Assembly: GCA_948695535.1 (NCBI GenBank)
Contig: CAPRTS010000003.1
Coordinates: 21,107-85,106 of the forward strand
DNA from: an uncultured Eubacteriales bacterium
GTDB lineage: Bacteria > Bacillota > Clostridia > Christensenellales > UBA1242
DNA: 64,000 bases
Direction of reading: 5' to 3'
In this document: positions 1,479 to 63,321 of the stretch, one piece after another
Layout: every line of letters begins with the position of its first letter
Position numbering within the stretch: position 1 is the stretch's first letter
The notes under the pieces: generated by a model
Databases searched by the model: none
The model's input: the letters and a program-made list of their open reading frames with translations, nothing else
What the model was told of the DNA's origin: nothing
Made by a program: the position numbers and the translations under genes

Positions 1479-1506
1479 TTGTCATAGCAAAAAATAATGG
1501 TATAAT
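1479..1506 (+). promoter_or_regulatory. sigma-A-type promoter, predicted leaderless rpoZ transcript
   Basis: TTGTCA (1479-1484), 16-nt spacer with TG extension, TATAAT (1501-1506), then 7 nt to ATG 1514. No SD. Confidence 0.5.
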
Positions 1507-1513
1507 TACTATT

Positions 1514-1732
1514 ATGTTATATCCGAAAATTGAAGATTGTATTGCTAAGGCAGGGAATAGTAAATACGTTTTGGCGGCGATGGTGGCTAAGCGAGCCAAA
1601 GATTTAATTACGCGTAATGCGGGACAGTTTACGGTAGGCAAGGAAAAACAAATTTCTTACGCTATGCGGGAAGTTATGGATGGCCGCTTGTTGCCAGTTT
1701 TTGGTGCTAACCAAACGGCTAACGCTAAATAA
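1514..1732 (+). CDS. rpoZ: DNA-directed RNA polymerase subunit omega
   Basis: MLYPKIEDCIAKAGNSKYVLAAMVAKRAKDL matches the RpoZ N-terminal pattern. The start was chosen at the ATG 7 nt after the TATAAT rather than the longer track ORF (1475). Confidence 0.8.
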   Translation: MLYPKIEDCIAKAGNSKYVLAAMVAKRAKDLITRNAGQFTVGKEKQISYAMREVMDGRLLPVFGANQTANAK

Positions 1733-1735
1733 TTT

Positions 1736-3765: not shown

Positions 3766-5046
3766 ATGGTTCCGGTAGTGGTGGGGCGATCTAAGTCACA
3801 ACGTAAAGTGCGTCGCAAAATGAAACAGCGACGTAAACAACGTCGCCTTGATATTCAAAAAATTGTTGTTAAAATACATAAAATTACCCCAAGATATTGT
3901 GATTTAACGTTGCTTTTGGCAGTTTTGGGACTGACAACCTTTGGTATTTTTATGATTTATTCAGCATCACATTACAACGCTACGGTTTATTATGATGACC
4001 CCTTTTATTACACAGTCAAACAGTTGATTGGTTTAGTAATGGGGGTAATTGGCATTGGTGTCATGTATTTTATTGATTACCATACTTGGCAAAAGTTGGC
4101 GTACTTGATTTTTGGAACGGCAGTATTATTGTTGGTGGTGGTTTTTATCCCCGGTATTGGTATCAACAAGTTAGGGGCAACTCGTTGGGTAGGCGTCGGT
4201 AGTTTTTCTTTACAACCCAGTGAAATCGCTAAATTTGCTTTCGTAATTTTTGCCGCCAAAATTTTTGCGTTGCAACCTAAGGTAAAGACCGTTATGCAAG
4301 CAACCGGAACGGAAACGTCATCTATAAAAGTAACTGACCGCCTGCCAGCACCACGCTGGTGGCAAATTATCGCCGTATTGGCGGCGGGTGGTCTACTGTG
4401 TTTGTTGATCATCTTAGAACCAAATATGTCGATTACCATGACCGTAGGCATTATCATGTTGGTGGTGTTGTTCTTGTGTGGCGTGCGGTTAAAGACTTTG
4501 GCGTTAATTCTGTTACCGGCTTTGGCTGCTGTGGCCGTGATGTTAGTGGCAGAACCATACCGGTTGAAACGTCTGTCGGCGTTCATCGACCCGTGGGCCA
4601 ATCCCAAAGGGGAAGGTTTCCAGTTGATTCAAAGTCTTTATGGCATCGCTAATGGCGGTTTTTGGGGCGTGGGGTATGGTAACAGTGTGCAAAAAAATAT
4701 GTTTTTGCCGTTCGCGGAAAGCGACTTTATCTTTGCCATTATTGCGGAAGAATTCGGTTTAATTGGTTGCTTGGGGTTGTTTGCGGTGTTCGGTTTGATT
4801 ATTTATAAAATTTTCCGCATTGGTACGCAGTGCCGTGACTATTTTGGTCGCTATTTGTGTTTCGGCATTGGTACAGTCATCATGGTGCAAGCGGGGTTGA
4901 ACTTCGCAGTATCGACCGGTTGCATTCCGCCGACGGGGTTGCCATTACCGTTTATTTCGTTCGGTGGCACCAGTTTATTGGTGTTCATGATGGCGATTGG
5001 CATCGTGCTAAATGTAGACAAGCAAAACAAAAAGATGCTATCCTAA
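3766..5046 (+). CDS. SEDS-family peptidoglycan polymerase (FtsW/RodA/SpoVE family)
   Basis: Polytopic membrane protein with SEDS-like segments (SLQPSEIAKF, LEPNMS, FAESDFIFAIIAEEFG, GLPLPFISFGGTS). Basic N-terminal extension. Start uncertain. Confidence 0.85.
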   Translation: MVPVVVGRSKSQRKVRRKMKQRRKQRRLDIQKIVVKIHKITPRYCDLTLLLAVLGLTTFGIFMIYSASHYNATVYYDDPFYYTVKQLIGLVMGVIGIGVMYFIDYHTWQKLAYLIFGTAVLLLVVVFIPGIGINKLGATRWVGVGSFSLQPSEIAKFAFVIFAAKIFALQPKVKTVMQATGTETSSIKVTDRLPAPRWWQIIAVLAAGGLLCLLIILEPNMSITMTVGIIMLVVLFLCGVRLKTLALILLPALAAVAVMLVAEPYRLKRLSAFIDPWANPKGEGFQLIQSLYGIANGGFWGVGYGNSVQKNMFLPFAESDFIFAIIAEEFGLIGCLGLFAVFGLIIYKIFRIGTQCRDYFGRYLCFGIGTVIMVQAGLNFAVSTGCIPPTGLPLPFISFGGTSLLVFMMAIGIVLNVDKQNKKMLS

Positions 5047-5049
5047 GGC

Positions 5050-5601
5050 ATGCCTTCACAAATTACGCATTTAGCGATTGCCAAACACTACTTGGCTTTG
5101 CACCCGCACCAAATTAAAGACGTGCAACGTTTTCTGGACGGCAGTGTCTTACCCGATTTGACGCCCGATAAGGCTGCCAGTCACTGTGGGGTACGCACCG
5201 AAAAGTACGACATCGTTAAACGCAATCGCGAAAAGGTTAACCCCGAATTGTACCGCACAACACACGCGATGAATGACGATTTTAATAAAGGCTGGTATTT
5301 ACATTTATTGACCGATGACCAGTATTATAATTACTTTTTGCGGTCATATTTTGCCGGTGTCGATATGCAACAAGCGTCGATTGATATGTACGAAACTACG
5401 CAACGCGATAATGCGCATTTAATTGCTAAGTACGGCGTTGGTTATGCGGATACGACCGTCGCCCAAGCGTTAATTGACATCAATTTGGCCTACGACCATG
5501 AGCATCACCAACGTTACGGTTATGATTATCAGTTCACGATCCCGTATACGTTGGCGGAGCTGGACGCGTTTGTTGAGCAAATGGCTACCAAGCTGGTTTA
5601 A
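5050..5601 (+). CDS. hypothetical protein (His-rich; weak resemblance to the zinc-dependent phospholipase C-like fold)
   Basis: 183-aa ORF starting 4 nt after the SEDS stop. N-terminus MPSQITHLAIAKHY plus several conserved-looking His/Asp. Family assignment is tentative. Confidence 0.5.
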   Translation: MPSQITHLAIAKHYLALHPHQIKDVQRFLDGSVLPDLTPDKAASHCGVRTEKYDIVKRNREKVNPELYRTTHAMNDDFNKGWYLHLLTDDQYYNYFLRSYFAGVDMQQASIDMYETTQRDNAHLIAKYGVGYADTTVAQALIDINLAYDHEHHQRYGYDYQFTIPYTLAELDAFVEQMATKLV

Positions 5602-6041
5602 TTTTGTAATTTATCAATAAAAAGAATTCCGTCCATGTGGTCCATTTCGTGACCGCAACAAACAGCATCGCGACCGTGAAAAGTTTGGGTGTGAGACTTG
5701 CCGTCGCGGTCTTGGTAGTCGATGGTTACTAAGTGTGGGCGGCGAACCCGACCGCTAATTCCCGGGCAGGACAGACAGCCTTCGCTGGACACGCGCGGAT
5801 TTTTTGCTGTCTTGATTACCGGGTTGATAATTTCTACAATGCCGAATTCGTCAGTTAGTAGTACGGCCATGCGGTATAATACACCGACTTGGACGGCGGC
5901 GATGCCTACGCCATTGGCGTGCAACATAGTTTCTTGCATATCGTCCAATAAAGTATGTAAACGGGGTGAAAAATCCGTAACCAGTTTGCTGTGTTTGCGG
6001 AGTAGTGGGTCGCCTTCTTTAATAATCGTTAATCTTGCCAT
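5598..6041 (-). CDS. def: peptide deformylase
   Basis: Motifs GVGIAAVQVG, EGCLSCPG and HEMDHMDG. Start set at MARLTII, which lies 7 nt after a TATAAT. Confidence 0.9.
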   Translation of the reverse strand: MARLTIIKEGDPLLRKHSKLVTDFSPRLHTLLDDMQETMLHANGVGIAAVQVGVLYRMAVLLTDEFGIVEIINPVIKTAKNPRVSSEGCLSCPGISGRVRRPHLVTIDYQDRDGKSHTQTFHGRDAVCCGHEMDHMDGILFIDKLQN

Positions 6042-6048
6042 CGTTATT

Positions 6049-6077
6049 ATTATAACACCAGATGTGGTGTCTGACAA
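6049..6077 (-). promoter_or_regulatory. promoter of def, predicted leaderless
   Basis: On the minus strand: TTGTCA (6077-6072), N17, TGtTATAAT (hexamer 6054-6049), N7, ATG 6041. Confidence 0.5.
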
Positions 6078-6135: not shown

Positions 6136-6164
6136 TTGCCGAGTTGGGGGTAAAGTGTTATAAT
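6136..6164 (+). promoter_or_regulatory. promoter of fmt, predicted leaderless
   Basis: TTGCCG (6136-6141), N17, TGtTATAAT (hexamer 6159-6164), N7, ATG 6172. No SD. Confidence 0.5.
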
Positions 6165-6171
6165 TATAAAT

Positions 6172-7089
6172 ATGAAGATTGTTTTTATGGGGACGCCGCA
6201 ATTTGCTGCCGACGTGTTGGCGGGGATTTTGTCGCACCATGAAGTGGTTGGCGTGGTGACGCAACCCGACGCGGCGGTAGGTCGTGGTCAACAGGTGCAA
6301 TTTAATCCCGTGAAGCGGTTAGCGCTGGCGAACGGTATTCCGGTTCTGCAACCGCCTAAAATCAGTTTGGATTTGGAACCGTTATTGGCTTGGCAACCCG
6401 AAATTATTGTGACCTGTGCTTTTGGTCAAATTTTACGCCAAAATGTTTTGGACGCGGCGCCACACGGGGTAATTAACGTTCACGGCAGTTTATTGCCACG
6501 CTACCGTGGGGCGGCCCCAATCCAGTGGGCGGTGATTAACGGTGAAACGACCACGGGCATCACCATTGCGCAAACCGAGTTGGGGTTAGACTGTGGGGCG
6601 ATTATTCAGCAAGTTACTACACCAATTGCCCCCAAAGAAACCGCGGGCGATTTGTTTGCCCGGTTACCCAGTATCGCTATTGAGGCTTTATTAACCGCGT
6701 TGGACGCCATCGCGCACGGCACGGCAACCTTTACCCCGCAAGACGACCGTCAAGCCACCAACGCCCCGATGTTGAACAAGACTATGGCCAAAATTGATTG
6801 GCACCAAGACGCGACTAAGATCGCTAATTTGGTGCGCGGTTTGAACCCGTGGCCAGTAGCGTACTTTAATTTGGCTGGTGCGTCCGTAAAAGTTTACGCA
6901 GCAACGGCAGTAGATGGTAATGCTATCGCCGGAACGGTGGTAAATTGTGACCCGAAAAACGGCTTGGTGATTGGTTGTGGTCGTGGTTGTTTGCGTATTG
7001 ACCAATTACAATTAGCGGGTAAAAAGGTTACCACTGGGGCGGCCTTTTGTAACGGTCGTGACCTTAAAAACGTGAAAATTGACGGGTAG
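6172..7089 (+). CDS. fmt: methionyl-tRNA formyltransferase
   Basis: MKIVFMGTPQFAA start, HGSLLPRYRGAAPIQWA motif, and a C-terminal Fmt domain. Confidence 0.9.
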   Translation: MKIVFMGTPQFAADVLAGILSHHEVVGVVTQPDAAVGRGQQVQFNPVKRLALANGIPVLQPPKISLDLEPLLAWQPEIIVTCAFGQILRQNVLDAAPHGVINVHGSLLPRYRGAAPIQWAVINGETTTGITIAQTELGLDCGAIIQQVTTPIAPKETAGDLFARLPSIAIEALLTALDAIAHGTATFTPQDDRQATNAPMLNKTMAKIDWHQDATKIANLVRGLNPWPVAYFNLAGASVKVYAATAVDGNAIAGTVVNCDPKNGLVIGCGRGCLRIDQLQLAGKKVTTGAAFCNGRDLKNVKIDG

Positions 7090-7833: not shown

Positions 7834-8656
7834 TTGCTAAACAACCTTTTTCGGTCTTATGGGCAAAATGTCGCCACAAGAGAAAAACAGCAATTGCCGA
7901 GTAGGTTACGGCAACCGTGATGATGGTGGGTGTGGTAAAGACGGCGGGTGAGACAAAGCAAAAGGCGATACTGCAACAATCGACTAAGAGATGGGTAGTA
8001 ACCGCTAGCCACAGATTGTTGGATCTTTTGTAAATTACACCTAAGATTATACCTAAGGCAATTGTCCAAATAATGCGGCACACGATGGTGAGTGCGTTTT
8101 GCCCAAGCATGCCGAAAATATGACCCAACCCAAATAATAATGAAGCAATAATAATCGCCAGCAACGTGGCGTGTTTGGTTTTGTGAGCAATTCTTTCAAT
8201 GATATTCAGTAACAAGGCGCGCACGTACAATTCTTCAATAACACTAACGCCGATGTAATATACTAAGCCTTCGACAATGATTTTTTCTGCTGACGGGGTG
8301 TAGTTGAAGTGACCAATTAAACCTAACGAAAAAACCAGTGCCGAAACGGTAATTAGCATTATCATTGGTAATAAAAAGGTACGCCAGCCACTCCGGAAAT
8401 TGGTTAGCCCCATGGCTTTGAAAAGATTGGGACATAGGTAGCGCAGGGCAATTAAACTGCCGGTAATGACTAACCATTGGTTGATCATAATGGTGAAAAT
8501 AATGGGGGTGATATCGGTTACGTTAATATTGACAAATAGCACAGCCGGGAAAGCGGTAATGTCCATTATGGTCATGCACACGCAAATAATACTGGCCCAA
8601 ATCACTTCTTTGGTGGGAATTAGCGGTTTTTCTGGCCCTTTTGGCGTATGATTCAT
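7826..8656 (-). CDS. CPBP family intramembrane glutamic endopeptidase (CAAX/Abi family)
   Basis: Multi-TM protein with EELYVRALL (EExxxR) and LLFGLGH motifs. Confidence 0.8.
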   Translation of the reverse strand: MNHTPKGPEKPLIPTKEVIWASIICVCMTIMDITAFPAVLFVNINVTDITPIIFTIMINQWLVITGSLIALRYLCPNLFKAMGLTNFRSGWRTFLLPMIMLITVSALVFSLGLIGHFNYTPSAEKIIVEGLVYYIGVSVIEELYVRALLLNIIERIAHKTKHATLLAIIIASLLFGLGHIFGMLGQNALTIVCRIIWTIALGIILGVIYKRSNNLWLAVTTHLLVDCCSIAFCFVSPAVFTTPTIITVAVTYSAIAVFLLWRHFAHKTEKGCLANE

Positions 8657-8722
8657 GATTGTAATAATTTAACCCGTAAACCAATGTCCGACAAGTATTT
8701 TATGGTCGGCACGCTAATTACC

Positions 8723-8751
8723 TTGCGAATTGGGGTGTTTATTGGTACAAT
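8723..8751 (+). promoter_or_regulatory. promoter of rlmN, very short or no leader
   Basis: TTGCGA (8723-8728), N17, TGgTACAAT (hexamer 8746-8751), N9, ATG 8761. No SD. Confidence 0.5.
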
Positions 8752-8760
8752 AGACCCAAG

Positions 8761-9837: not shown

Positions 9838-10611
9838 GTCCATAATCATCATGACCACAAAACCAACCGTAAAGCCGAGCGTACTCCAACTGCGGTTTTC
9901 TTTGGCAATGTCAGGAATCAGTTCCCCAATTACGACCGTCAGCATGGCGCCCGCGGCGAAAGTTAATAAGAACGGTAAGATACTGCGTACCGCCATGGTA
10001 ATGAAAAAACCAATCACGGCGGCAATGGGTTCGACGATGCCACTGGCTTGGCCTAAAAAGAACGCTTTGCTTTTTTTCATGCCGTCACGGTAAAGTGGTA
10101 CCGATACGGCTAGGCCGTCAGGAAAATTTTGGATACCGATCCCGACCGCTATCATGATTGCCGTTAATAAATTACTGCCGGCCAGACCCATAGCGAAACT
10201 GCTGAACCCGACACCAATAGCTAAGCCTTCGGGAATATTGTGCAGGGTAACAGTGCTGAAAAGCAGTATACTACGTTTTTTATCGTCGGCGTGGGGTAAT
10301 TTTCGGTCTAAAATCAGGGAAGTTAGTGTGATGAATAAACCACCTACCAAAAAACCAAGGCTGGGTAAAAGCCACGATAGGTTTGGCCAAAGTTCGTTTG
10401 CTAAGTCGATTGCGGGCAAAGTAAGTGACCACAAAGCCGCCGCCACCATAATACCGGCACTAACACCTAACATGATGTCAAGAGCTCGTTTATTGATGTC
10501 TTTATCTTTGAAACAAAAAACAACTGCCGCCCCCAGTACGGTGGCTAGCCAAGCAAAAAGTGCCGCCAGTAGCAGGAGAACAACGGGTGGAATTTGTGCC
10601 AAATTGTCCAT
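9820..10611 (-). CDS. ZIP family metal transporter
   Basis: Multi-TM protein with HNIPEGLAIG and IQNFPDGLAVS ZIP signatures. The ORF is open to a GTG at 10638; the first ATG is at 10611. Confidence 0.8.
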   Translation of the reverse strand: MDNLAQIPPVVLLLLAALFAWLATVLGAAVVFCFKDKDINKRALDIMLGVSAGIMVAAALWSLTLPAIDLANELWPNLSWLLPSLGFLVGGLFITLTSLILDRKLPHADDKKRSILLFSTVTLHNIPEGLAIGVGFSSFAMGLAGSNLLTAIMIAVGIGIQNFPDGLAVSVPLYRDGMKKSKAFFLGQASGIVEPIAAVIGFFITMAVRSILPFLLTFAAGAMLTVVIGELIPDIAKENRSWSTLGFTVGFVVMMIMDLTLTW

Positions 10612-10684
10612 TATCTTTATCTTATGTTGGAAAATCACTTTCTGTTTATTGGCATGGTATGCTATAATCCTCTAGGAGGGTAAA

Positions 10685-18787: not shown

Positions 18788-18794
18788 TTAATTG

Positions 18795-56200: not shown

Positions 56201-56388
56201 TGCATTTCGATTACTTCGGGAACTTGACCCAACAAGTTGGGTTGGCCTTTGGCCGCCCATTGGTCACAGTATTCCGCCATGTCGGAACTAGGGGTAATGG
56301 GGTAAATAGCAGCGGCCTCAGTTAATAAGTAGGCCATGCGTGCCGTTGCTTCGTTGCCAGAAATAGTTACTAAGTTTTCTTTTTTCAT
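53251..56388 (-). CDS. nifJ: pyruvate:ferredoxin (flavodoxin) oxidoreductase
   Basis: GNEATARMAYLLTEAAAIYPITPSS, two ferredoxin motifs (CIQCNRCAMVCP and CTGCGSCAQVCP), and the TPP site GGDGWAYDIGFGGLDHV. Confidence 0.9.
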   Translation of the reverse strand: MKKENLVTISGNEATARMAYLLTEAAAIYPITPSSDMAEYCDQWAAKGQPNLLGQVPEVIEMQSEAGAAGTLHGLLLGGTLGTTFTSSQGLLLMIPNLYKMVGELLPAVVHVAARTVATHALSIFGDHSDIYACRSTGIAMLVSNSVQENADLALIAHLAAIEASYPFMHFFDGFRTSHEFNKIAVPDSTVAEKMLNYKALTHLRTRALNPEHPVAYGTTENSDTFFQHREAAATYVAELPKIVSKYFEKFAKLTGRNYHLFDYIGDPNAEHIIIAMGSACETIAETLPKLNGKFGLIKVRLYRPFSAEHLRQALPASVKTITVLDRTKENGAVGDPLYLDVKATVKVNKVIAGRYGLAGKEFTPDMVAAIYANATAPSPREQFTVGINDDVCHTSLTVIPRPDLHPQGGCRFYGLGSDGTVGANKNSCAIIGDNTDLYCQAYFAYDSKKSGGTTISHLRFGKQPIHSAYLVTHPTFVACHNQTFLTKFDMLAGIVDGGTFLLNTTYNADSIDAILPNNVKQTLRDKHINFYIINAYQIAKELGLGGRINTIMQAAFFKLINLIDYQRSKELLKASIVKTYGKKGPAVVEMNNRAVDSAETALHAIDVNTLTVTATTTKPAKKTNIDLINSLEGDSLPVSAFTPDGQAPTATTQYEKRDIATSLPQWLPEHCIQCNRCAMVCPHATIRPVLTDQPTPDSFQTIKAIGVPNQPNAKYRVQISPHDCTGCGSCAQVCPARNKAIVMKPFDQVHEDENYAFSLTLPDTKVTPTNVKLAQFNRPLFEFSGACAGCGETPYIKLLTQLYGDKLIIANATGCSSIYGGSSPTCPYAKNDQGHGPAWANSLFEDNAEFGFGLRKALNLQGKTDQIVWVIGGDGWAYDIGFGGLDHVLSSHEDINILVLDTEVYSNTGGQASKATPKGAIAKFAARGKTTDKKDLGGMMMQYPHVYVAQVAMGANMEHTLRVFKEATAYHGPSLVIAMATCINQGIDMSNGMGIMAEAVKCGYTKLYHRNPDADNGELVIDSPEPTGDIDAFKAKQTRFRKRS

Positions 56389-56394
56389 ATAGCC

Positions 56395-56423
56395 ACTATA
56401 CCACATTTTTATTGTGGGCGCAA
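56395..56423 (-). promoter_or_regulatory. promoter of PFOR gene, predicted leaderless
   Basis: On the minus strand: TTGCGC (56423-56418), N17, TGgTATAGT (hexamer 56400-56395), N6, ATG 56388. Confidence 0.5.
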
Positions 56424-56477
56424 AAGGTATTGCCCGTCATTAGATGACAAATTTATTAAATTTGCATATATGAAGTT

Positions 56478-57518
56478 ATGCAAAATATCGCAGTTGTTTT
56501 TGGCGGCCAAAGTACAGAACACGACGTTTCAATTTTAACGGGCTTACATTTGGCACAGCACGTTACGGATGACTATCACGTTATATTGGTTTATTTAACT
56601 AAAAATAATCGTTTTGTATACGGTAGCCGTAAAATTGATGATTACATTTCGGGCAAGGCTGGTCGTGCTAGGCTTTTTAAGCGGTGGGATAAAATCGCGT
56701 GTGTGGTAAATTGCTGTCACGGTGGTGCGGGGGAAGATGGTACTTTGGCGGCGGTTTTGAAATTCTATAATTTACCAGTCACCAGTTGTGACCCACTTGC
56801 GGCATGGCAGCAACAAAGTAAAATTGCTACACGTGAAAAGTTGACAGCGGCGGGCTTTAAGCAACCACGCTTCCAAGTGTTTACTGATTTGGCGTTGTCG
56901 TCATTAAAACTACCACTACCAGTAGTGGTTAAACCCGATTTGCAAGGTAGTTCTATTGGGGTTGCGGTAGCACATAATCAAGACGAATTACGCACAGCGA
57001 TAAAAACTGCGTTGGCGTTAGGCTCACGCGTAATTGTGGAAGAATTAATTACGGAAATGCAAGAAGTTAACATTGCCGTTATGCGCAGTAACGGTAAAAT
57101 CATTACTTCGGGATTAGAGTTGGTGGGTAAACAACAGTTTTTTTCGTTTGCTGATAAATATTATAATACTGACAGCGGTTTTATTAAAAAAGGTACAGTA
57201 ACGCCTGATACGGTGTATTTGAATAAAATTGCTCCGCAGGTTGAAAAGTTGGCGGTAGCAGCTTACCAGTTATTTGCCTCGCGCGGGGTGGTGCGAACCG
57301 ATTTTATGGTTAGTGGTGAACAAATCATTTTGAACGAAAACAATACCGTGCCGGGCTTTATGGCCTACCACCTTTGGTTGAAAAAAGGCATACCTTACGG
57401 GGTGGTTATTGATGATATGATCAAAGACGCTATTAACCAACACCAAAAACAACATTTTATTACTGAATATCAAAGCGAAATATTACGTAAAAATCGACAA
57501 TTAGTTCTTGAAATTTAA
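56478..57518 (+). CDS. ddl: D-alanine--D-alanine ligase
   Basis: IAVVFGGQSTEHDVSILTG, HGGAGEDGTLA and an ATP-grasp core with a C-terminal NTVPGF motif. Confidence 0.9.
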   Translation: MQNIAVVFGGQSTEHDVSILTGLHLAQHVTDDYHVILVYLTKNNRFVYGSRKIDDYISGKAGRARLFKRWDKIACVVNCCHGGAGEDGTLAAVLKFYNLPVTSCDPLAAWQQQSKIATREKLTAAGFKQPRFQVFTDLALSSLKLPLPVVVKPDLQGSSIGVAVAHNQDELRTAIKTALALGSRVIVEELITEMQEVNIAVMRSNGKIITSGLELVGKQQFFSFADKYYNTDSGFIKKGTVTPDTVYLNKIAPQVEKLAVAAYQLFASRGVVRTDFMVSGEQIILNENNTVPGFMAYHLWLKKGIPYGVVIDDMIKDAINQHQKQHFITEYQSEILRKNRQLVLEI

Positions 57519-57536
57519 TGACAATTATGGTACAAT
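57508..57536 (+). promoter_or_regulatory. promoter of the GH95-like gene, inside the ddl 3' end
   Basis: TTGAAA (57508-57513), N17, TGgTACAAT (hexamer 57531-57536), N12, ATG 57549. No SD. Confidence 0.45.
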
Positions 57537-57548
57537 TTTACTTGTATT

Positions 57549-59936
57549 ATGGATAAATACGATAGTTCAATTTTATTAAGCAAAGCACCCGCCGTATTTA
57601 TGGCGAATGCGTTTTTAGACGGCAGTATCTTGGGTAATGGTAAAGTCGGTTTAGCGATCCTTGGCGCAATTTCTAACGAACAAATTTTGGTTAATCATGC
57701 CGGGCTACAACATCATGGTAAAAATGGTGTTTTGCAAGATATTAGTGACGATTTTTCAGTGTTGCGTAAGAAATTTGCGGACGGTAAAATTATAGAAGCC
57801 GAGCAAATTTTAGCCAAAGCTTTTGTCAAAAAGAATTGTCGTTTAGCCCCGGGACAACCGCAACCAATGGTTAAGATTAAATTAGATTTTTTTAACACCG
57901 GTGTAATTACTAACTATGAGCGTTTAACCGATATGAAAAACGGCGAGTTAGCGGTTGGCTTCCTGGCTGATGGTAAAGAGCAAACCTTGCGTCGTTTATC
58001 TTTGTCCAAGGCAACTGACATCATGGCGTACAATGTTACCAAAAACAATGGCAAAATTCGCGTGACCATCCAGTTACAGCCTTGTGATCCAGACAACAAA
58101 TTTAATGTGGTTAAGTACGAAAATGGTTATTTCTATTTTAGTTCTCGTGCAGAAAATGGGCGCGATTATGGTTTAGTTATGCGTTTAATGGTGACGGGCG
58201 GTAATATTGCCGTAGCCAATAACGTGGTGACAATTAAAGACGCTACCGATTTAACAATATTAGCAAAACCATTTATTAACGCTGATGCGAGTGTTGAATT
58301 TGGCAAAATTAAAATGGAATTGTCCTTAATAAAGGATAGTTACAACAAACTGGCTACTAAAAATGCGGTACAATACAAAAAAGCATTTGAAGATTGCAGT
58401 TTGGCTTTGAATACAACCAAAACCGACGCCGACATTAAAGAGTTTATTGAACGTACTAATAATAATGAATTGACGGCGGATTTATTAGAACGCTTGTGGA
58501 ATTTTGCCAAGTATTTATGTATTTGTTTAGATGGGGCGTTGTTATCTCCTGCGGGACTGTGGTGTGCGGATAACGATTGCGACCATGGGGTTGCTTCTTG
58601 GGATGGTGTGGCACAGTTGTTGTATTCTGGCATTCAAAAGACCGTCAATCCGTCCGCCATAGTGTCATTCTTAGACTACTTAATGGCTTACGAATCCGAC
58701 TTGAAAAAAAATGCTGCTCGGGTTTATGGTATGCGTGGTTATTTTGTGCCACGAATTACGGCCTTGGATTCGGCAAGTTTTGGGGCAGTCGACGCCGCAA
58801 CTTTGCACTTTGTGGCTTCATCAGCCTTAGCCGCCGATTTGTTTTACGAATATTATTTAACCACGGGTGACGAAAAAACTCTACGTAGCAAAATTTTCCC
58901 GTTCATGCGTAATGTTTTTGAATTTTATTCCGATTTCTTAAAGTTAGACGCTTCGGGAAAGTACGTTACGATCCCCAGTTACAGCCCAAATGCAACTCCG
59001 GGTAACTTGGTGGCAGGGCGTCCATTGGTGAACTTTGCAATGTCGTCATCTTCAACTATTGATTTCTTAGCCTTGCGCAGTTTGTTGGAAAATTTAATTA
59101 GTGCGGCTACCTTGTTGAAAACCGCCAAAGATGATCTTGCCGTTTGGCAAGATATGTTGGTGAAATTACCGGACTTAACCGTCAACGGGCAAGGGTGCTT
59201 AAAAGAATATACGAATTCTGTTTTTGTTGATAAAGTAGAAAACGCGGGAGTTATGCATGGCTATGGTTTGTACCCATTAAAGCATTTCTTGAATAAAGAT
59301 CCGCAAATTTTGTATCGTCCTAATGTTGTGCAAGGTGCAAACCCCGAAGTGGAAATTGCGGCCAGCGTGGCGGCGGCAAATGCGATTAAAACTCGCGTGG
59401 ATATGGCATCGTCTTATCAACCAACCGCTAATTTGATTATGGCGGCTTGCCAATTAACTCACGCTGACGATGTTAATGCCGTCTACAATCTGTTAATTAG
59501 AATAATCAGCAGTTCAGCAACGCCGTCAGGTTTATTTTTATCGAACGATTGGCGTGGTTCGGGTATGACTACCAATGATAAGCCTAATTTAGATGTAGCT
59601 GTTTCGTTGGGTTTGGGTACCGCGATTACCGAATGCGTTGTGCAAAGTACGGCCTCGGTTTTGAAAATTTTGCCAGTATTGTTGGAGCCGTTAATGGTCG
59701 GTAATGTTAAGAATTTAGCAACTGATTTTGCTGCTAAAATTTCAATGAACTGGGACGCCGTTAAAGGGAAATTAAATTTGAAAATTATGCCGACCAAAAA
59801 CGCGACCATTAAAATTATTTTTAACGATACTTTCCGTAAATTACGCAGTAAAGATTGGCAGTGGAATAAACAAATCAATGGTATAGAGACTGTAAATTTG
59901 GTGGCGGGTAAAACTGTATCAATAGATCTTGGCTAA
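57549..59936 (+). CDS. glycoside hydrolase family 95-like protein (six-hairpin type), cytoplasmic
   Basis: N-terminal GNGKVGLAILG...EQILVNHAGL resembles the GH95 GNGRLGAM...E.IQLNE..LW. The central LLSPAGLW...ASWDG...YGMRGYF is collinear with the GH95 catalytic region. No signal peptide. Tentative. Confidence 0.45.
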   Translation: MDKYDSSILLSKAPAVFMANAFLDGSILGNGKVGLAILGAISNEQILVNHAGLQHHGKNGVLQDISDDFSVLRKKFADGKIIEAEQILAKAFVKKNCRLAPGQPQPMVKIKLDFFNTGVITNYERLTDMKNGELAVGFLADGKEQTLRRLSLSKATDIMAYNVTKNNGKIRVTIQLQPCDPDNKFNVVKYENGYFYFSSRAENGRDYGLVMRLMVTGGNIAVANNVVTIKDATDLTILAKPFINADASVEFGKIKMELSLIKDSYNKLATKNAVQYKKAFEDCSLALNTTKTDADIKEFIERTNNNELTADLLERLWNFAKYLCICLDGALLSPAGLWCADNDCDHGVASWDGVAQLLYSGIQKTVNPSAIVSFLDYLMAYESDLKKNAARVYGMRGYFVPRITALDSASFGAVDAATLHFVASSALAADLFYEYYLTTGDEKTLRSKIFPFMRNVFEFYSDFLKLDASGKYVTIPSYSPNATPGNLVAGRPLVNFAMSSSSTIDFLALRSLLENLISAATLLKTAKDDLAVWQDMLVKLPDLTVNGQGCLKEYTNSVFVDKVENAGVMHGYGLYPLKHFLNKDPQILYRPNVVQGANPEVEIAASVAAANAIKTRVDMASSYQPTANLIMAACQLTHADDVNAVYNLLIRIISSSATPSGLFLSNDWRGSGMTTNDKPNLDVAVSLGLGTAITECVVQSTASVLKILPVLLEPLMVGNVKNLATDFAAKISMNWDAVKGKLNLKIMPTKNATIKIIFNDTFRKLRSKDWQWNKQINGIETVNLVAGKTVSIDLG

Positions 59937-59954
59937 AACGCATATAAATAAGTT

Positions 59955-60989
59955 ATGCCGACTATTGTTTTAACGGGTGGTGGCACAGCTGGACACGTTT
60001 TACCGCACATTGCTTTGTTACCTTTTTTGCGTGAAAAATTTGACCACGTCATTTATGTCGGGGGTGATGGAGTAGAACGTGACTTGGCCAAGACAAATGG
60101 TATACCTTTTTACCGAGTGACGACCGTTAAATTAAGACGCAAGTTGACCTTAAAAAATTTGTTAATTCCTTTCCGTTTACTGAAAGGAATTCGTGAGGCT
60201 AAACAAATTTTGCGCAAAGTAAAACCCGATATTGTTTTTTCAAAAGGCGGTTTTGTGGCTTTGCCGGTAGTTTACGCTGCTGCCAGTTTGGGTATTAAAG
60301 TCATTGCTCATGAGAGTGATATGTCGTTAGGCTTGGCTAATCGTTTGACCGCTAAAAAATGTACAGTAGTGGCAACAACTTTTCCCCTTAAAGACCAACG
60401 TTACCATAACTTGGTGCAAACTGGGGCAATAATTCGTCCCAGTATCTATCATGGCGATGCCCGCCGAATTGCTTTGCCGAGTAACGGACTGCCAAATTTA
60501 TTAGTTATGGGTGGCAGTCTGGGGGCGGCAGCCATTAATAATGCCGTGTCAAAAGCTCTACCTAAATTATGCCGCTGTTACAATGTCTTACACCTGACGG
60601 GGCGAGGTAAAGCCCTTAACCAACCAGCTTTGGCTAACTACCAACAAGTTGAATACTTAGTTGACCCTGCTGATGCATTGGCTTGGGCAGACATTGTGGT
60701 AGCCCGCAGTGGGTCAGGAACAGTGTCCGAGTTGTTGGCATTACGTAAACCAGCAGTTTATATTCCTTTACCCAAAACGGAGAGTCGTGGCGACCAAATT
60801 GAAAATGCTGAGTATTTACAGAGTTTAGGCGTGGGTGTGCTTTTACCACAAACGGAATTAACTACCGAACGATTATTGGGCACCATTGACCAAGTCTATG
60901 CACAAAGTAGTTTAATAAAAGCAAATTGTGCCAAACAGACTTGGATTGACGGTACCGCCAAAATACTTAGTTATTTACAACGTAATTAG
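59955..60989 (+). CDS. murG: undecaprenyldiphospho-muramoylpentapeptide beta-N-acetylglucosaminyltransferase
   Basis: LTGGGTAGHVLPHIAL, AHESDMSLGLANRL and VARSGSGTVSELLALRKPAVYIPLP motifs. Confidence 0.9.
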   Translation: MPTIVLTGGGTAGHVLPHIALLPFLREKFDHVIYVGGDGVERDLAKTNGIPFYRVTTVKLRRKLTLKNLLIPFRLLKGIREAKQILRKVKPDIVFSKGGFVALPVVYAAASLGIKVIAHESDMSLGLANRLTAKKCTVVATTFPLKDQRYHNLVQTGAIIRPSIYHGDARRIALPSNGLPNLLVMGGSLGAAAINNAVSKALPKLCRCYNVLHLTGRGKALNQPALANYQQVEYLVDPADALAWADIVVARSGSGTVSELLALRKPAVYIPLPKTESRGDQIENAEYLQSLGVGVLLPQTELTTERLLGTIDQVYAQSSLIKANCAKQTWIDGTAKILSYLQRN

Positions 60990-61599
60990 TATCTTCGTTT
61001 AAGCGTTCGCTTATAATTTGGCTGATCGAAATTTCGTAGGCGGTGCGCGTTTCAGTTAAACCGGAATCTAATCGTTTTTGGTATTCACGACTTTGTATGC
61101 GACCAATAATTTCGACTTGCTCGCCAATGTTTAAATTTTTAGCAAAACGGGCGTTACGACCCCAAGCAATGGCGGGTAAATAGTCGCTTTTGTTGTTGCT
61201 GCGGTTGCAAGCAATCAATAAGTCAGCAATCTCGCGATTAAACGGGGTAGTACGATAAATTGGCATTTTGCAAACGTAACCCGTTAATTCAATTTGGTTA
61301 GGGTTGGTTTCGTCAATTTCTTCGCTGATTTCATTGACAAAGACCGACAACATTAACCGACTGCGTCCGTTGTCAAGTTTGTTGTAACTGCGGAATTCGC
61401 CCAGTACCGCGATGTTACAGCCTAAGGTAATATTGTGCTTAGCAATTAAGTCTTTATGAATCGTCAAGGGGATTGTGTCTACGATGTTAGACAATCGCCT
61501 TACCGATAATTGCAAATTGCAATATTCGCTCCCATAAAATTCGTCTCCGTTGGTGGGTTCGTTTACCACCAGTCCATATAGATACACTCTGTTTTCCAT
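60967..61599 (-). CDS. SSB-like protein with two tandem OB-fold halves
   Basis: Two halves share one pattern. First half: NRVYLYGLVVNEP...LSVRRLSNIVDTIPLTI...IAVLGEFRS. Second half: NQIELTGYVCKMPIYRTTPFNREIADLLIACNR...DYLPAIAWGRNARF...GRIQSREY. No acidic C-terminal tip. AAGGAGAA SD. Confidence 0.55.
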   Translation of the reverse strand: MENRVYLYGLVVNEPTNGDEFYGSEYCNLQLSVRRLSNIVDTIPLTIHKDLIAKHNITLGCNIAVLGEFRSYNKLDNGRSRLMLSVFVNEISEEIDETNPNQIELTGYVCKMPIYRTTPFNREIADLLIACNRSNNKSDYLPAIAWGRNARFAKNLNIGEQVEIIGRIQSREYQKRLDSGLTETRTAYEISISQIISERLNEDTNYVVNN

Positions 61600-61776
61600 T
61601 TTTTTGTTTTTCTCCTTTTATTTTTTGGGTGTATTTTCTCATCTTAGGTGATAATCTCGCCAAGTGCAACGACGAATAATGCCGAAATTGCACATACTTT
61701 GTCGAAATTTATCTTAATTTAACATAACAATTTTAATTTAATTTACTTTACTGCCACTTTGTTGTAATTTTTAACT

Positions 61777-63321
61777 ATGATTGCGGTAAAAAGTTTTGGT
61801 ATCAGCGGTGTTGATGGCTATGTGGTAGATGTTGAAGTTGATATCGCTAAGGGGTTACCTGGTTATACATTAGTGGGGTTGCCTGACAACGCAATCAAGG
61901 AAGGTAAGGAACGCGTTAAAAGTGCAATTTTGAATATTGGTCAAAAATTTCCTCTCGGTAATGTTGTGATAAACTTAGCTCCCGCCAGTACCAAAAAAGA
62001 AGGTGCCAACTACGATTTACCAATAGCAATTGGTATTTTGGCGAATACTTTATGTTTTACGAAGAAACTGAGTGAGTGGGCCTTTGTTGGGGAATTATCA
62101 TTAAACGGTGAAATACGGCGTGTAGATGGTGTATTACCTTTCTTGCTGACAGCTGTGAAAGAAAATATCAAAAATGTGATTGTTCCTGACGATAATTACG
62201 ATGAGGCGTGTTTTGTGGACGGAGTGAATGTTTTTACTGCTAAAAATTTGGCTACGGTGCTTGATTGTTTTATTAGCGAAAACAGCCCGGAAATAATTTT
62301 GCGGCGGGTTGTCCCAGTAGATTTCAATACCATTCTGCAAGACGCCAAGTATACGTGTGACATGAAGTATGTGCGTGGCCAATTCGTGGCCAAGCGAGCA
62401 TTAGAAATTGCGGCTGCGGGCGGGCACAATATTTTGTTAATTGGCCCGCCGGGTAGTGGAAAAACTATGTTAGCCAAATGCTTTCAAACGATTTTACCGC
62501 AACTAACATTTGCAGAAAGCTTAGAAACTACTAAAATTCATAGTTGTGCGGGTATGCTGGACGCACAACATGGTATTGTTTTAACCCGACCATTCCGCAG
62601 TCCTCACCATACAGCGTCCGCAGTGGCTTTGGCCGGTGGTGGAAAATACGCCCGCCCAGGAGAAATCTCATTGGCACATAATGGGGTGTTGTTTCTTGAC
62701 GAGATGCCCGAATATAATCGTAGTTGCTTGGAACTGTTGCGGCAACCATTAGAAGATAATTGTATTACTATTTCTCGGGCAGCGGTAACTGTTGACTATC
62801 CCGCATCCTTTGTTTTGGTGGCCAGCATGAATCCGTGTCCGTGCGGTTATTATGGCAGTCGGCTTAACCAATGCCATTGTACCCAATCTAGCATACAAAA
62901 ATATCTAGGCAAAATTTCCGGGCCTTTGTTGGATCGTATTGATTTACATATTGAGGTTGATCAAGTTACTTATGACGATTTGACAAATACGCAATTAGCT
63001 GAAGATAGTGCCACAATTCGGCAACGTGTAATGCAAGCTCGTTTGCTACAAAATGAACGTTTTCAAAGTTGCAAGATTCACTGTAACGCGAAAATGGACG
63101 CTCAAATGGTAAAAGAATATTGTCAACTTGATGCCGAAGGCGAAAAGATTTTAAAAACCGCCTTTACAAATTTGCATTTATCGGCTCGGGCTTACACCCG
63201 CATTCTAAAAGTGGCACGAACTATTGCTGACTTGGCGGGGGCGGTCAATATTTCGGCCGCCAACATCAGCGAGGCGGTATCTTATCGCAGTTTAGATCGC
63301 TTTAATCGGGGACAATTATGA
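61777..63321 (+). CDS. comM: YifB/ComM family Mg-chelatase-like ATPase
   Basis: N-terminal Lon-like domain, Walker A LIGPPGSGKTM, GVLFLDEMPEY, and a C-terminal ChlI-like domain. Confidence 0.85.
   Translation: MIAVKSFGISGVDGYVVDVEVDIAKGLPGYTLVGLPDNAIKEGKERVKSAILNIGQKFPLGNVVINLAPASTKKEGANYDLPIAIGILANTLCFTKKLSEWAFVGELSLNGEIRRVDGVLPFLLTAVKENIKNVIVPDDNYDEACFVDGVNVFTAKNLATVLDCFISENSPEIILRRVVPVDFNTILQDAKYTCDMKYVRGQFVAKRALEIAAAGGHNILLIGPPGSGKTMLAKCFQTILPQLTFAESLETTKIHSCAGMLDAQHGIVLTRPFRSPHHTASAVALAGGGKYARPGEISLAHNGVLFLDEMPEYNRSCLELLRQPLEDNCITISRAAVTVDYPASFVLVASMNPCPCGYYGSRLNQCHCTQSSIQKYLGKISGPLLDRIDLHIEVDQVTYDDLTNTQLAEDSATIRQRVMQARLLQNERFQSCKIHCNAKMDAQMVKEYCQLDAEGEKILKTAFTNLHLSARAYTRILKVARTIADLAGAVNISAANISEAVSYRSLDRFNRGQL

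What the first reader, a model, noticed from the sequence alone, without database searches (positions are those of the whole stretch)
1479..61779. Recurrent -35/N17/-10/N5-9/ATG layout implies widespread leaderless mRNAs, while translation-machinery genes keep strong SDs
At least eleven operon-leading genes have a sigma-A-type promoter whose -10 box ends 5-9 nt before the ATG, with no SD. They are listed here with the gap between the -10 box and the ATG.
- rpoZ: TATAAT 1501-1506, ATG 1514
- def: minus strand, TATAAT 6054-6049, ATG 6041
- fmt: TATAAT 6159-6164, ATG 6172
- rlmN: TACAAT 8746-8751, ATG 8761
- rpmB: TATAAT 11296-11301, ATG 11309
- FtsQ-like: TATAAT 18782-18787, ATG 18795
- 25309 gene: TACAAT 25295-25300, ATG 25309
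- rimO: TATATT 27839-27844, ATG 27850
- copZ: minus strand, TATAAT 41369-41364, ATG 41357
- PFOR: minus strand, TATAGT 56400-56395, ATG 56388
- comM: TAATTT 61765-61770, ATG 61777
Most have a TTGnnn -35 box at a 16-18 nt spacing, and many have a TG extension. Weaker versions precede murD, murA, ddl, murG and cdsA. In contrast, infA, rpsM, rpsK, rpsD, rpoA, rpsB, tsf, frr and the unknown gene at 20743 carry clear GGAGG-type SDs. Such a dual initiation regime is not what I would expect for Bacillota, where SD use is usually very high. The pattern also helps fix true start codons for rpoZ, def, rimO and PFOR.
Basis: partly seen in the sequence, partly recalled or inferred. Interest (0 to 1): 0.6.

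Follow-up and report, generated by a model that had tools for sequence, protein, structure and literature searches.

The report
Leaderless-type promoters in a Clostridia lineage
In this uncultured gut Clostridia lineage, about four in ten transcription units carry a standard promoter so close to the start codon that the mRNA should have no leader and no ribosome-binding site; the layout is known from other bacteria but is rare in this group.

Summary
All 11 boxes and ATGs sit at the stated coordinates.

**Statistics**
- With a promoter score, 12-13 of 32 unit-leading genes have a sigma-A-type promoter whose -10 box ends 5-9 nt before the start codon.
- Every other 5-nt offset bin holds 0-2 genes. 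Shuffled upstream regions give 0.2.

**Relatives**
- Eleven loci from relatives (58-95% Fmt identity) keep the -35 box, the TG extension, the -10 box and the exact gap. The spacer and gap sequences drift.
- In about 80 ordinary Clostridia loci the same genes are SD-led. def is leaderless-type in 6/6 family loci against 0/63 others, fmt in 6/6 against 0/76, and rpmB in 6/6 against 0/9.
- rlmN has the promoter only where it heads a unit. Where it follows fmt it has an SD-like sequence instead.

**Interpretation**
- Transcription most likely starts at or 1-3 nt before the AUG, giving leaderless mRNAs. No 5' ends were mapped.
- The layout matches GeneMarkS-2 "group C", which covers 3.4% of Firmicutes. 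Leaderless genes with a TG-extended -10 box are already described in Lactobacillales. I therefore call this a new member of a known kind.
- The "translation machinery keeps SD" contrast is only partly right: rpmB, def, fmt, rimO and rlmN are leaderless-type.
- A second, unexplained "CATA" element precedes the mur and ddl genes.

The parts
1479..1516 (+). rpoZ unit: TTGTCA-16-TGgTATAAT, 7-nt gap, ATG 1514
   Evidence: (11/12 consensus). Kept in 5/5 relatives as TGnTATAAT + 7 nt + ATG. 0/4 in other Clostridia, which have an SD.
6039..6077 (-). def unit: TTGTCA-17-TGtTATAAT, 7-nt gap, ATG 6041
   Evidence: 6/6 relatives keep TGnTATAAT + 7 nt. 0/63 in other loci, of which 62/63 have an SD.
6136..6174 (+). 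fmt unit: TTGCCG-17-TGtTATAAT, 7-nt gap, ATG 6172; back to back with the def promoter
   Evidence: 6/6 relatives have TGnTAnnnT + 6-7 nt; the start is GTG in L085 and L086. 0/76 in other loci. The universal Fmt N-terminus MKIVFMGTP fixes the start.
8654..8694 (-). CPBP (Rce1-like) protease unit: TTGTCG-17-TAAATT, 9-nt gap, ATG 8656
   Evidence: Identical in L081; L083 diverges. This is a weaker member.
8723..8763 (+). rlmN unit: TTGCGA-17-TGgTACAAT, 9-nt gap, ATG 8761
   Evidence: Present in L081 and L083, where rlmN heads a unit. In L082, L084, L085 and L086 rlmN follows fmt directly and carries GGTGG/GGAG-like sequences instead.
11273..11311 (+). rpmB (L28) unit: TTGCGT-17-TGtTATAAT, 7-nt gap, ATG 11309; the -35 box overlaps the end of rpe
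   Evidence: 6/6 relatives keep TGtTATAnT + 7 nt. Other Clostridia: 0/9 leaderless-type and 9/9 with an SD.
18759..18797 (+). FtsQ-like (POTRA) unit: TTGACC-17-TATAAT, 7-nt gap, ATG 18795
   Evidence: (11/12). L087 has TATACT + 7 nt.
25271..25311 (+). Gene 25309 unit: TTGACA-18-TACAAT, 8-nt gap, ATG 25309
   Evidence: (11/12). Conserved in L087.
25728..25766 (+).
   Evidence: L087 has TTGATT, then TATAAT + 6 nt + GTG, and its gene is called at that GTG.
27816..27852 (+). rimO unit: TTGAAT-17-TGcTATATT, 5-nt gap, ATG 27850
   Evidence: L087 is identical. L088 has a different upstream context but keeps TTGAAT-17-TATTAT + gcaat + ATG.
41355..41391 (-). copZ unit: TTGCCA-16-TATAAT, 6-nt gap, ATG 41357; an inverted repeat lies in the spacer
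   Evidence: (11/12). The CopZ model aligns from residue 3. No relative was available.
49388..49428 (+). cdsA unit: TAGACG-17-TATAAT, 9-nt gap, ATG 49426
   Evidence: L089 has TATAAT + 9 nt. L090 has TTGTCA-18-TATACT + 5 nt. L091 has TGaTATTAT + 7 nt.
56386..56423 (-). PFOR unit: TTGCGC-17-TGgTATAGT, 6-nt gap, ATG 56388
   Evidence: 3/3 relatives keep TGnTATAnT + 6 nt + ATG. The upstream ATG 56406 lies inside the -10 box and is not conserved. Homologues are 1041-1048 aa.
61740..61779 (+). comM (yifB) unit: TGtTGTAAT at 61760-61768, 8-nt gap, ATG 61777; no good -35 box
Evidence: Relatives have TGnTGTAGT or TGcTATTGT + 8-9 nt.
57508..57551 (+). GH95-like gene: TTGAAA-17-TGgTACAAT, 12-nt gap, ATG 57549; expected leader about 5 nt, no SD
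   Evidence: The gap is 12 nt in L089, 9 in L090 and 8 in L091, all with TGcTATAAT or TGgTACAAT.
30382..30424 (+). Large unknown gene: TTGTCT-18-TATACT, 10-nt gap to ATG 30422; ATG 30413 is not conserved
   Evidence: (L087 reads ATA at the 30413 position).
5015..5052 (+). Gene 5050: TAGACA-18-TGcTATCCT, 5-nt gap, ATG 5050; lies inside the end of ftsW and may be an internal promoter
   Evidence: Relatives have TGnTATCAT, TGnTATCCT or TGcTAGAAT at 5-9 nt.
13639..13654 (+). murE: CATAGA + 7 nt + ATG 13652 (CATA class)
   Evidence: 7/7 genomes.
16137..16153 (+). murD: CATATA + 8 nt + ATG 16151 (CATA class)
   Evidence: 6/6 genomes.
18741..18780 (-). murA: GTCACA-17-CATAAT + 8 nt + ATG 18743; face to face with the ftsQ-like promoter in a 51-nt intergenic region
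56465..56480 (+). ddl: CATATA + 7 nt + ATG 56478 (CATA class)
   Evidence: 4/4 genomes.
59941..59957 (+). murG: CATATA + 8 nt + ATG 59955 (CATA class)
   Evidence: 4/4 genomes.
10609..10626 (-). ZIP transporter: CATAAGAT (TAAGAT + 7 nt) + ATG 10611
   Evidence: All 7 genomes have a TAnnnT hexamer 5-8 nt before the ATG.
10640..10687 (+). Contrast case, rpe: TGcTATAAT (10660-10668), then a short leader with GGAGGG, ATG 10685
   Evidence: (dG -10.7). An SD-like G-rich box is visible in 5 of 6 relatives at the aligned start, and 5/6 pass dG <= -7.
33877..33949 (+). Contrast case, infA operon: TTTACA-17-TATTAT, about 35-nt leader, GGAGGGG SD, TTG 33947
   Evidence: (dG -13.3).
47160..47295 (+). Contrast case, rpsB-tsf: perfect TTGACA-18-TGnTATAAT, about 97-nt leader, AAGGAGG SD, ATG 47293
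   Evidence: 12/12; dG -11.2.

Best explanation
The window comes from an uncultured, spore-forming Clostridia lineage that NCBI names only "Eubacteriales" or "Clostridia bacterium". In it, a large share of transcription units are transcribed from ordinary sigma-A promoters placed so that RNA polymerase starts at the A of the start codon or 1-3 nt before it.

Proposed mechanism:
- The promoter has a TTGnnn -35 box, a 16-18 nt spacer, often a TGn extension, and a TAnnnT -10 box.
- The resulting mRNAs begin with AUG and have no Shine-Dalgarno sequence.
- They are presumably read by the leaderless route, in which a 70S ribosome or a 30S-IF2-fMet-tRNA complex binds the 5'-terminal AUG directly.
- Units that keep a leader (rpe, infA-rpmJ-rpsM-rpsK-rpsD-rpoA-rplQ, rpsB-tsf-frr) and part of the internal cistrons use canonical GGAGG sites, so the ribosome still has a normal anti-SD.

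Shown here: the motif anatomy, its positional enrichment, its conservation in relatives, and its absence at the same genes in other Clostridia.

Inferred: the position of the 5' end and the mode of translation.
For: **Position.**
- 12-13 of 32 leading genes have a promoter scoring >=9.5 with the -10 box ending 5-9 nt before the start. Other offset bins hold 0-2 genes and shuffles give 0.21.
- The gap distribution (5 to 9 nt, mode 7) matches the usual -10-to-start distance. It also matches the 6-8 nt reported for group C genomes (PMC6028130).

**Full promoter anatomy, not just AT-richness.** A TTGnnn box sits at 16-18 nt in 14 of the 17 units I list, and a TG extension in 9.

**Footprinting.** In 11 loci of relatives, rpoZ, def, fmt, rpmB, rimO, PFOR, cdsA, ftsQ-like, the 25309 gene and the ABC transporter keep the boxes and the gap while the spacer and gap sequences change.

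**Ortholog contrast.**

| Gene | Family loci, leaderless-type | Other loci, leaderless-type | Other loci with SD |
|---|---|---|---|
| def | 6/6 | 0/63 | 62/63 |
| fmt | 6/6 | 0/76 | 65/76 |
| rpmB | 6/6 | 0/9 | 9/9 |
| rpoZ | 5/5 | 0/4 | 4/4 |

**Family-wide, annotation-free.**
- A leaderless-type site occurs at 19.6% of ORFs in the window, 16.8% in family loci and 1.4% in other Clostridia (p=2e-8 and 4e-18).
- A strong SD occurs at 55%, 52% and 77% respectively.

**Natural experiment.** rlmN has the promoter only where it heads a unit.

**Start codons.**
- They are ATG in 16 of the 17 units; the ABC transporter uses GTG.
- No in-frame alternative start with a strong SD lies within 40 codons, with one exception: a GTG at +96 in gene 25309 (dG -7.8), judged unlikely because it would remove 32 residues of an N-terminus that L087 keeps at 92% identity.
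- N-termini match homologues.
Against: - No 5' end has been mapped. A -10 box 9-12 nt from the ATG (rlmN, cdsA, CPBP, 30422, 57549) more likely gives a 2-5 nt leader than none.
- rpoZ, rpmB, cdsA and the gene at 5050 lie 3-53 nt behind a co-directional gene with no clear terminator. Read-through transcripts would carry them as SD-less internal cistrons, so another SD-independent route must also operate. priA and ftsW show the same.
- comM and CPBP have weak boxes.
- The sample is 64 kb plus about 220 kb of relatives, much of it syntenic. It is not a whole genome, and the relatives are not independent of each other.
Confidence: 0.8

Rival explanations
1. The boxes are real promoters but give short leaders of 1-12 nt rather than truly leaderless mRNAs. 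Translation then uses an SD-independent route on an unstructured, AU-rich 5' end.
For: Gaps of 9-12 nt occur at rlmN, cdsA, CPBP, 30422 and 57549. Many internal genes without an SD (priA, ftsW, rseP, murG) must already be translated without an SD.
Against: The modal gap is 7 nt, and 6-7 nt in the best-conserved sites (rpoZ, def, fmt, rpmB, PFOR, copZ). That puts the usual start position on or next to the A of the ATG. Leaders of 5 nt or less are conventionally counted as leaderless anyway.
Confidence: 0.12
2. The TATAAT-like boxes are not promoters. They are AT-rich translation-initiation signals on transcripts that start further upstream, comparable to the non-SD signals of Bacteroidota.
For: Several of the genes follow a co-directional gene closely (rpoZ, rpmB, cdsA, the gene at 5050). 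The CATA class lacks a convincing -35 box.
Against: - TTGnnn boxes sit at exactly 16-18 nt, and TGn extensions are conserved with them in relatives.
- Divergent gene pairs share intergenic regions of only 51-130 nt, which leaves no room for other promoters (def/fmt, murA/ftsQ-like, CPBP/rlmN).
- rlmN loses the box when it becomes an internal gene.
- In L088 the rimO boxes follow a different upstream context.
Confidence: 0.05
3. The pattern is a by-product of AT-rich intergenic DNA, or of start codons chosen to fit the pattern.
For: The consensus scan finds about as many weak promoter-like sites as shuffles do in two of its three 20-kb scans: 39 vs 40.2 and 41 vs 45.3. In the first scan it finds more, 53 vs 39.6, sd 6.2.
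Against: - Shuffles give 0.21 genes against 12 observed, and other offsets give 0-2.
- The annotation-free tests treat the window and the controls alike.
- Starts are confirmed by N-terminal conservation and by protein lengths in relatives.
- The 80 control loci, processed in the same way, do not show the pattern.
Confidence: 0.02

Closest known systems
GeneMarkS-2 "group C" bacterial genomes (Actinobacteria such as M. tuberculosis, Deinococcus-Thermus; PMC6028130)
   Same: [quoted passage not shown] 25-50% of operons are predicted leaderless. The remaining genes use SD sites. Gene finders that know only about RBSs miscall the starts.
   Different: Those genomes are mostly high-GC, with a degenerate TANNNT box and a weak -35 box. 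This window is 43% GC, uses genetic code 11, and has full TTGnnn/TGnTATAAT promoters. Code-11 group C genomes are reported to be almost all high-GC (MetaGeneMark-2 preprint). Only 3.4% of Firmicutes fall in group C.
Leaderless genes of Lactococcus/Streptococcus, Oenococcus/Leuconostoc and Mycoplasma (Zheng et al. 2011, PMC3160421)
   Same: These are also Bacillota. The signal is TAtAAT with a strong TG peak just upstream, placed about 10 nt before the start codon.
   Different: Those are Bacilli and Mollicutes. The share of leaderless genes reported for Firmicutes averages 4.2%, with a maximum of 16.6%. Here it is about 20% of ORFs and about 40% of units, in a spore-forming Clostridia lineage that the paper does not mention.
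Experimentally mapped Clostridia transcriptomes (C. difficile 630, C. autoethanogenum)
   Same: Same class of organism, the same sigma-A promoter consensus and the same GGAGG SD.
   Different: Leaderless transcripts are 6 of 1646 mapped starts in C. difficile and about 2% in C. autoethanogenum. About 90% of C. difficile leaders carry an RBS. The orthologues of def, fmt, rpmB and rpoZ in 80 other loci are SD-led.

Membership tests
Group C-type genome organisation (bacterial leaderless plus SD; GeneMarkS-2) | A -10 (Pribnow) motif localised about 6-8 nt before the starts of first genes in operons | tested here: met
   The peak lies at gaps of 5-9 nt, mode 7, covering 12-13 of 32 leading genes. 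Other offset bins hold 0-2 genes. The same holds in 11 family loci.
Group C-type genome organisation (bacterial leaderless plus SD; GeneMarkS-2) | A substantial fraction (25-50%) of operons is leaderless | tested here: inconclusive
   The fraction is 38-41% of leading genes in this 64-kb window, and up to about 60% if the weak and CATA-class sites count. A whole genome was not available, and GeneMarkS-2 itself could not be run.
Group C-type genome organisation (bacterial leaderless plus SD; GeneMarkS-2) | The remaining genes use an SD-type RBS | tested here: inconclusive
   A strong SD (dG <= -7) is found at about 22 of 60 genes and an intermediate one at about 14. About 24 genes have none, including the internal genes priA, ftsW and rseP.
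Leaderless mRNA | The transcript's 5' end lies at the start codon or within a few nucleotides of it | not testable with these tools
   Only promoter geometry is available. No 5'-end data exist for this organism.
Leaderless mRNA | An AUG start codon and no SD upstream | tested here: met
   The start is ATG in 16 of the 17 units; the ABC transporter uses GTG. Two relatives use GTG for fmt. Duplex energies at the 14 genes tested are +0.8 to -5.4 kcal/mol, against -7 to -13 for SD genes.
Sigma-A/sigma-70 promoter with extended -10 | A TTGACA-like -35 box, a 16-18 nt spacer, a TGn extension and a TATAAT-like -10 box with A2 and T6 | tested here: met
   The table shows these features. Independent consensus scans give 9-11 of 12 matches for 13 of the sites. 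The PFOR -35 box (TTGCGC) falls below that tool's cut-off, and comM has no -35 box.
Sigma-A/sigma-70 promoter (applied to the CATA class before the mur and ddl genes) | T at -12 and T at -7 of the -10 hexamer, with a -35 box at 16-18 nt | tested here: not met
   The hexamers are CATATA, CATAGA, CATAAG or CATAAT. Position -7 is often A or G. -35 boxes are weak, or sit 20-21 nt away at murE. I therefore do not file these as standard sigma-A promoters.

The most novel reading that the evidence does not exclude
A whole family of mid-GC, spore-forming gut Clostridia has switched conserved housekeeping genes from SD-led to leaderless initiation. These include a ribosomal protein gene and the def/fmt pair. 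The switch is recent enough that single genes flip with operon context, as rlmN does. The family also uses a second, non-canonical "CATA" -10-like element in the same register for its mur and ddl cell-wall genes, possibly read by another sigma factor. That would offer a natural series for studying how initiation regimes turn over outside the high-GC phyla.
Probability: 0.25. Interest if true: 0.55.

Novelty: new member of a known kind. Interest (0 to 1): 0.4.

Why it matters
**Practical.** Gene finders that expect an RBS miscall starts in this lineage. Public calls include:
- Fmt shortened by 5 residues (P0001);
- PFOR lengthened by 6 residues (P0241) and by 15 (L089);
- RimO lengthened by about 40 residues (P0122);
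- Def lengthened by 3 residues (L083).

The promoter-to-ATG rule fixes these starts.

**Biological.**
- It extends frequent leaderless initiation to a Clostridia lineage with full-consensus promoters.
- It shows that the same orthologous genes are SD-led in neighbouring lineages.
- It offers a context-dependent case (rlmN) for studying how SD sites and leaderless promoters replace each other.

It is not a new mechanism.

Tried and rejected
- **Crude count.** Counting TATAAT-like hexamers before every in-frame ATG was swamped by internal ATGs and was uninformative. I replaced it with first-ATG and candidate-start tests.
- **Genome-contig scan.** It failed as a search for relatives, but I used the 80 loci as the control set.
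- **Exact look-up.** The window's Fmt was not on record, because the public call starts at M6.
- **Taxon name.** Cluster members carry only "Eubacteriales bacterium", "Clostridia bacterium" or a mis-binned "Prevotella sp.". The nearest named PFORs are Christensenellaceae at 61-62%.
- **GeneMarkS-2 supplement.** The tables listing which Firmicutes are group C are not held.
- **Rfam.** It found only tRNA-Glu, so no known leader RNAs explain the SD-less genes.
- **CATA element.** I considered it as the -35 box of a sigma-F/G promoter, as a sigma-E/K -10 box, or as the start site of an upstream promoter. None fits all orthologues.
- **copZ start.** ATG 41435 is rejected on CopZ length and model alignment.

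Full report
**What is there**

The window is 42.9% G+C. Its only RNA gene is tRNA-Glu.

It holds about 60 genes, which I named with NCBIfam and with Pfam hits on syntenic relatives:
- an ATP-dependent ligase, rpoZ, priA, ftsW, def, fmt, rlmN, rpe, rpmB, asp23, fakA;
- murE, mraY, murD, murA and an FtsQ-like gene;
- comF, an ABC exporter, rimO and rarA;
- infA, rpmJ, rpsM, rpsK, rpsD, rpoA, rplQ and veg;
- copZ and copA, ruvX, a ferredoxin and ppa;
- rpsB, tsf, frr, cdsA and rseP;
- a SigF/G-type sigma factor, ylmC, PFOR, ddl, a GH95-like gene, murG, an SSB-like gene, comM and dprA.

The gaps are 7, 7, 7, 9, 7, 7, 8, 5, 6, 6 and 6 nt.

**Is it more than chance?**

I scored every position with a simple sigma-A model: a -10 matrix, a bonus for TG, and the best -35 box at 16-18 nt.

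- Of 32 genes that head a transcription unit, 12 have a site scoring >=9.5 whose -10 box ends 5-9 nt before the start codon.
- Every other 5-nt offset bin out to 90 nt holds 0 or 1 genes.
- Two thousand dinucleotide shuffles of the upstream 60 nt give a mean of 0.21 and a maximum of 3.
- With corrected starts, the count is 13 at thresholds 8-9 and still 8 at threshold 13. Other bins hold 0-2.
- The tool's own consensus scan found eight sites with at least 11 of 12 matches in 1-60 kb. Five are rpoZ, def, ftsQ-like, the 25309 gene and copZ. The other three are the leadered rpsB promoter, a ferredoxin promoter and an antisense match.

- Among ORFs of at least 80 codons, the first ATG has such a site in 8/85 cases in the window. 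In 80 other loci it does so in 29/2651 cases (p=1e-5).
- Allowing any candidate start gives the table below.

| Set | ORFs with a leaderless-type site | ORFs with a strong SD at some candidate start |
|---|---|---|
| Window | 10/51 (19.6%) | 55% |
| Eleven loci of relatives | 33/196 (16.8%) | 52% |
| Eighty other loci | 16/1182 (1.4%) | 77% |

For the leaderless-type sites, the comparison with the other loci gives p=2e-8 for the window and p=4e-18 for the relatives. The 77% SD figure agrees with the 78% published for Clostridia (PMC10783764).

**Relatives**

I used these as the control set.

Protein searches found a populated family at 58-95% (Fmt), about 70-99% (RimO) and 75-100% (PFOR) identity. 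It is separated by a gap from ordinary Clostridia at about 42-57%. NCBI names these genomes only "Eubacteriales bacterium" or "Clostridia bacterium".

I fetched eleven syntenic loci, L081-L091. Their upstream regions, aligned on the conserved N-termini, are a clear footprint.

- **rpoZ:** TTTGTC, then TGnTATAAT + 7 nt + ATG in all five relatives, with different spacer and gap sequences.
- **def:** TGnTATAAT + 7 nt in six of six relatives.
- **rpmB:** TGtTATAnT + 7 nt in six of six relatives.
- **fmt:** TGnTAnnnT + 6-7 nt in six of six relatives, with a GTG start in two.
- **rimO:** TTGAAT-17-TATATT or TATTAT + gcaat + ATG. This holds even in L088, where the upstream neighbour differs.
- **PFOR:** TGnTATAnT + 6 nt in the window and all three relatives.
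- **cdsA, ftsQ-like, the 25309 gene, comM and the GH95-like gene:** similarly conserved.
- **ABC exporter:** starts at GTG 25764, 6 nt after TATACT. L087 has TATAAT + 6 nt + GTG.

**Ortholog contrast**

At the aligned starts of the same genes:

| Gene | Family loci, leaderless-type | Other loci, leaderless-type | Other loci with SD |
|---|---|---|---|
| def | 6/6 | 0/63 | 62/63 |
| fmt | 6/6 | 0/76 | 65/76 |
| rpmB | 6/6 | 0/9 | 9/9 |
| rpoZ | 5/5 | 0/4 | 4/4 |

The layout is therefore a property of this lineage, not of these genes.

rlmN provides a natural experiment.
- In the window, L081 and L083, an inserted divergent gene makes rlmN head a unit. There it has TGgTACAAT + 9 nt.
- In L082, L084, L085 and L086 it follows fmt directly. 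There it has GGTGG/GGAG-like sequences and no box.

**Are the starts right?**

- The Fmt N-terminus MKIVFMGTP is universal.
- The L28, RpoZ and Def N-termini match homologues.
- Relatives call rpoZ at 70-72 aa and def at 147 aa.
- PFOR homologues are 1041-1048 aa, which fits ATG 56388. ATG 56406 lies inside the -10 box and is not conserved.
- No in-frame alternative within 40 codons has a strong SD. The one exception is a GTG at +96 in the 25309 gene, which would remove 32 residues of an N-terminus that L087 keeps at 92% identity, so it is unlikely.

**Mechanism**

A -10 box ending 6-8 nt before the A of the ATG places the usual sigma-A start position on that A or next to it. Gaps of 9-12 nt would leave 2-5 nt.

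The most likely reading is leaderless, or nearly leaderless, mRNAs translated from a 5'-terminal AUG. I give this a confidence of 0.8. This step is inferred, because no 5' ends were mapped.

Canonical SDs elsewhere show that the anti-SD is intact:
- AAGGAGG before rpsB and rpsD;
- GGAGGGG before infA;
- a -7 to -13 kcal/mol duplex with a CCUCC tail at these and the other SD genes.

Leadered promoters also exist:
- rpe has a short leader with an SD, conserved in relatives;
- infA has a leader of about 35 nt;
- rpsB has a perfect consensus promoter and a leader of about 97 nt.

In L088, rpsL, rpsG and fusA are SD-led.

"Translation machinery keeps SD" does not hold for rpmB, def, fmt, rimO or rlmN. 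Many internal genes (priA, ftsW, rseP) have neither an SD nor a promoter.

The regime is also not unheard of in Bacillota.
- GeneMarkS-2 defines exactly this organisation as group C: a Pribnow box 6-8 nt from first-gene starts, and 25-50% of operons leaderless. It finds group C in 36 of 1064 Firmicutes (PMC6028130).
- Zheng et al. describe leaderless genes with a TG-extended TAtAAT in Lactobacillales and Mycoplasma. The average is 4.2% of genes and the maximum 16.6% (PMC3160421).

It is unusual for Clostridia and for mid-GC, code-11 genomes. I found no paper on this lineage. The verdict is a new member of a known kind.

**Unexplained**

"CATA" lies 13-15 nt before the ATG of murE, murD, murA, ddl, murG, the ZIP gene and ylmC.
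- That is seven genes. There are none at distances 4-12 or 16-25, and about 0.6 are expected.
- The element is kept in every orthologue seen: murE 7/7, murD 6/6, ddl 4/4, murG 4/4 and murA 2/2.
- It also precedes an unrelated gene directly after a terminator in L088.
- It sits in the register of the TATAAT boxes. However, it lacks T at -12, often lacks T at -7, and has no regular -35 box.

It could be a weak sigma-A variant or the target of another sigma factor. I could not decide between these.

Noticed in passing
window 13639-13654, 16137-16153, 18741-18757, 56465-56480, 59941-59957, 10609-10626, 52916-52933; L088 5590-5618: "CATA" sits 13-15 nt before the ATG of all five mur/ddl genes that have their own signal, and also before zip and ylmC. 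It is conserved in every orthologue. It lies in the same register as the TATAAT boxes but is not a canonical -10 box.
   Followed up: partly
window 41124-41233 (minus strand): The copZ ORF (77 aa, HMA domain) overlaps the copA reading frame, which is open from 41233, with a +1 offset. The copZ stop is the TGA in AAT TGA CCA. This could be two overlapping genes, with copA starting at ATG 41171. It could also be a frameshifted or recoded CopA with an N-terminal metal-binding domain.
   Followed up: partly
window 41370-41391: A 9-bp inverted repeat, TTGCCGAAATTTTTTTTGGCAA, fills the spacer of the copZ promoter. It is a candidate copper-repressor operator.
   Followed up: no
window 27816-27848: The tRNA-Glu(CTC) promoter (TTGCAA-17-TATAAT, minus strand, 27848-27820) and the rimO promoter (27816-27844, plus strand) overlap back to back within 33 nt.
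   Followed up: partly
window 6041-6172, 18743-18795, 8656-8761, 56388-56478: Divergent gene pairs share very short intergenic regions (51-130 nt) that contain two facing leaderless-type promoters and little else.
   Followed up: partly
public proteins P0001, P0241, P0122; loci L082, L083, L089: Public gene calls in this family are often wrong at the 5' end. Fmt is called at 300 or 313 aa instead of 305. PFOR is called at 1051 or 1060 aa instead of 1045. RimO is called at 463 aa instead of 422. Def is called at 150 aa instead of 147. Some false starts are ATGs that lie inside the -10 box.
   Followed up: yes
L081 1687-3264, L082 2353-3882, L084 1889-3322, L086 212-1651: The primary sigma factor of the relatives is long (477-525 aa). 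In L085 the call is 363 aa. I did not examine the extra N-terminal part.
   Followed up: no
L081 3308, L082 3924, L084 3364, L085 2367, L086 1712: The Zn_ribbon_9 gene just left of the window is leaderless-type in 5/5 relatives (TTGCTT-17-TGnTATnAT + 5-6 nt + ATG). Its start lies outside the window.
   Followed up: partly
window 41460-45785 and 30422-33865: Two very large proteins (1441 and about 1147 aa) have no NCBIfam hit. The first begins with a hydrophobic segment.
   Followed up: no
window 53251-56388: The PFOR is a short form (1045 aa against a 1167-position model, matched in two stretches). This form is shared by the whole family (1041-1048 aa).
   Followed up: no
window 1736, 3766, 50383: The internal genes priA, ftsW and rseP start 3-8 nt after the preceding stop codon, with no SD in the window or in relatives. 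SD-independent re-initiation therefore seems common here.
   Followed up: partly
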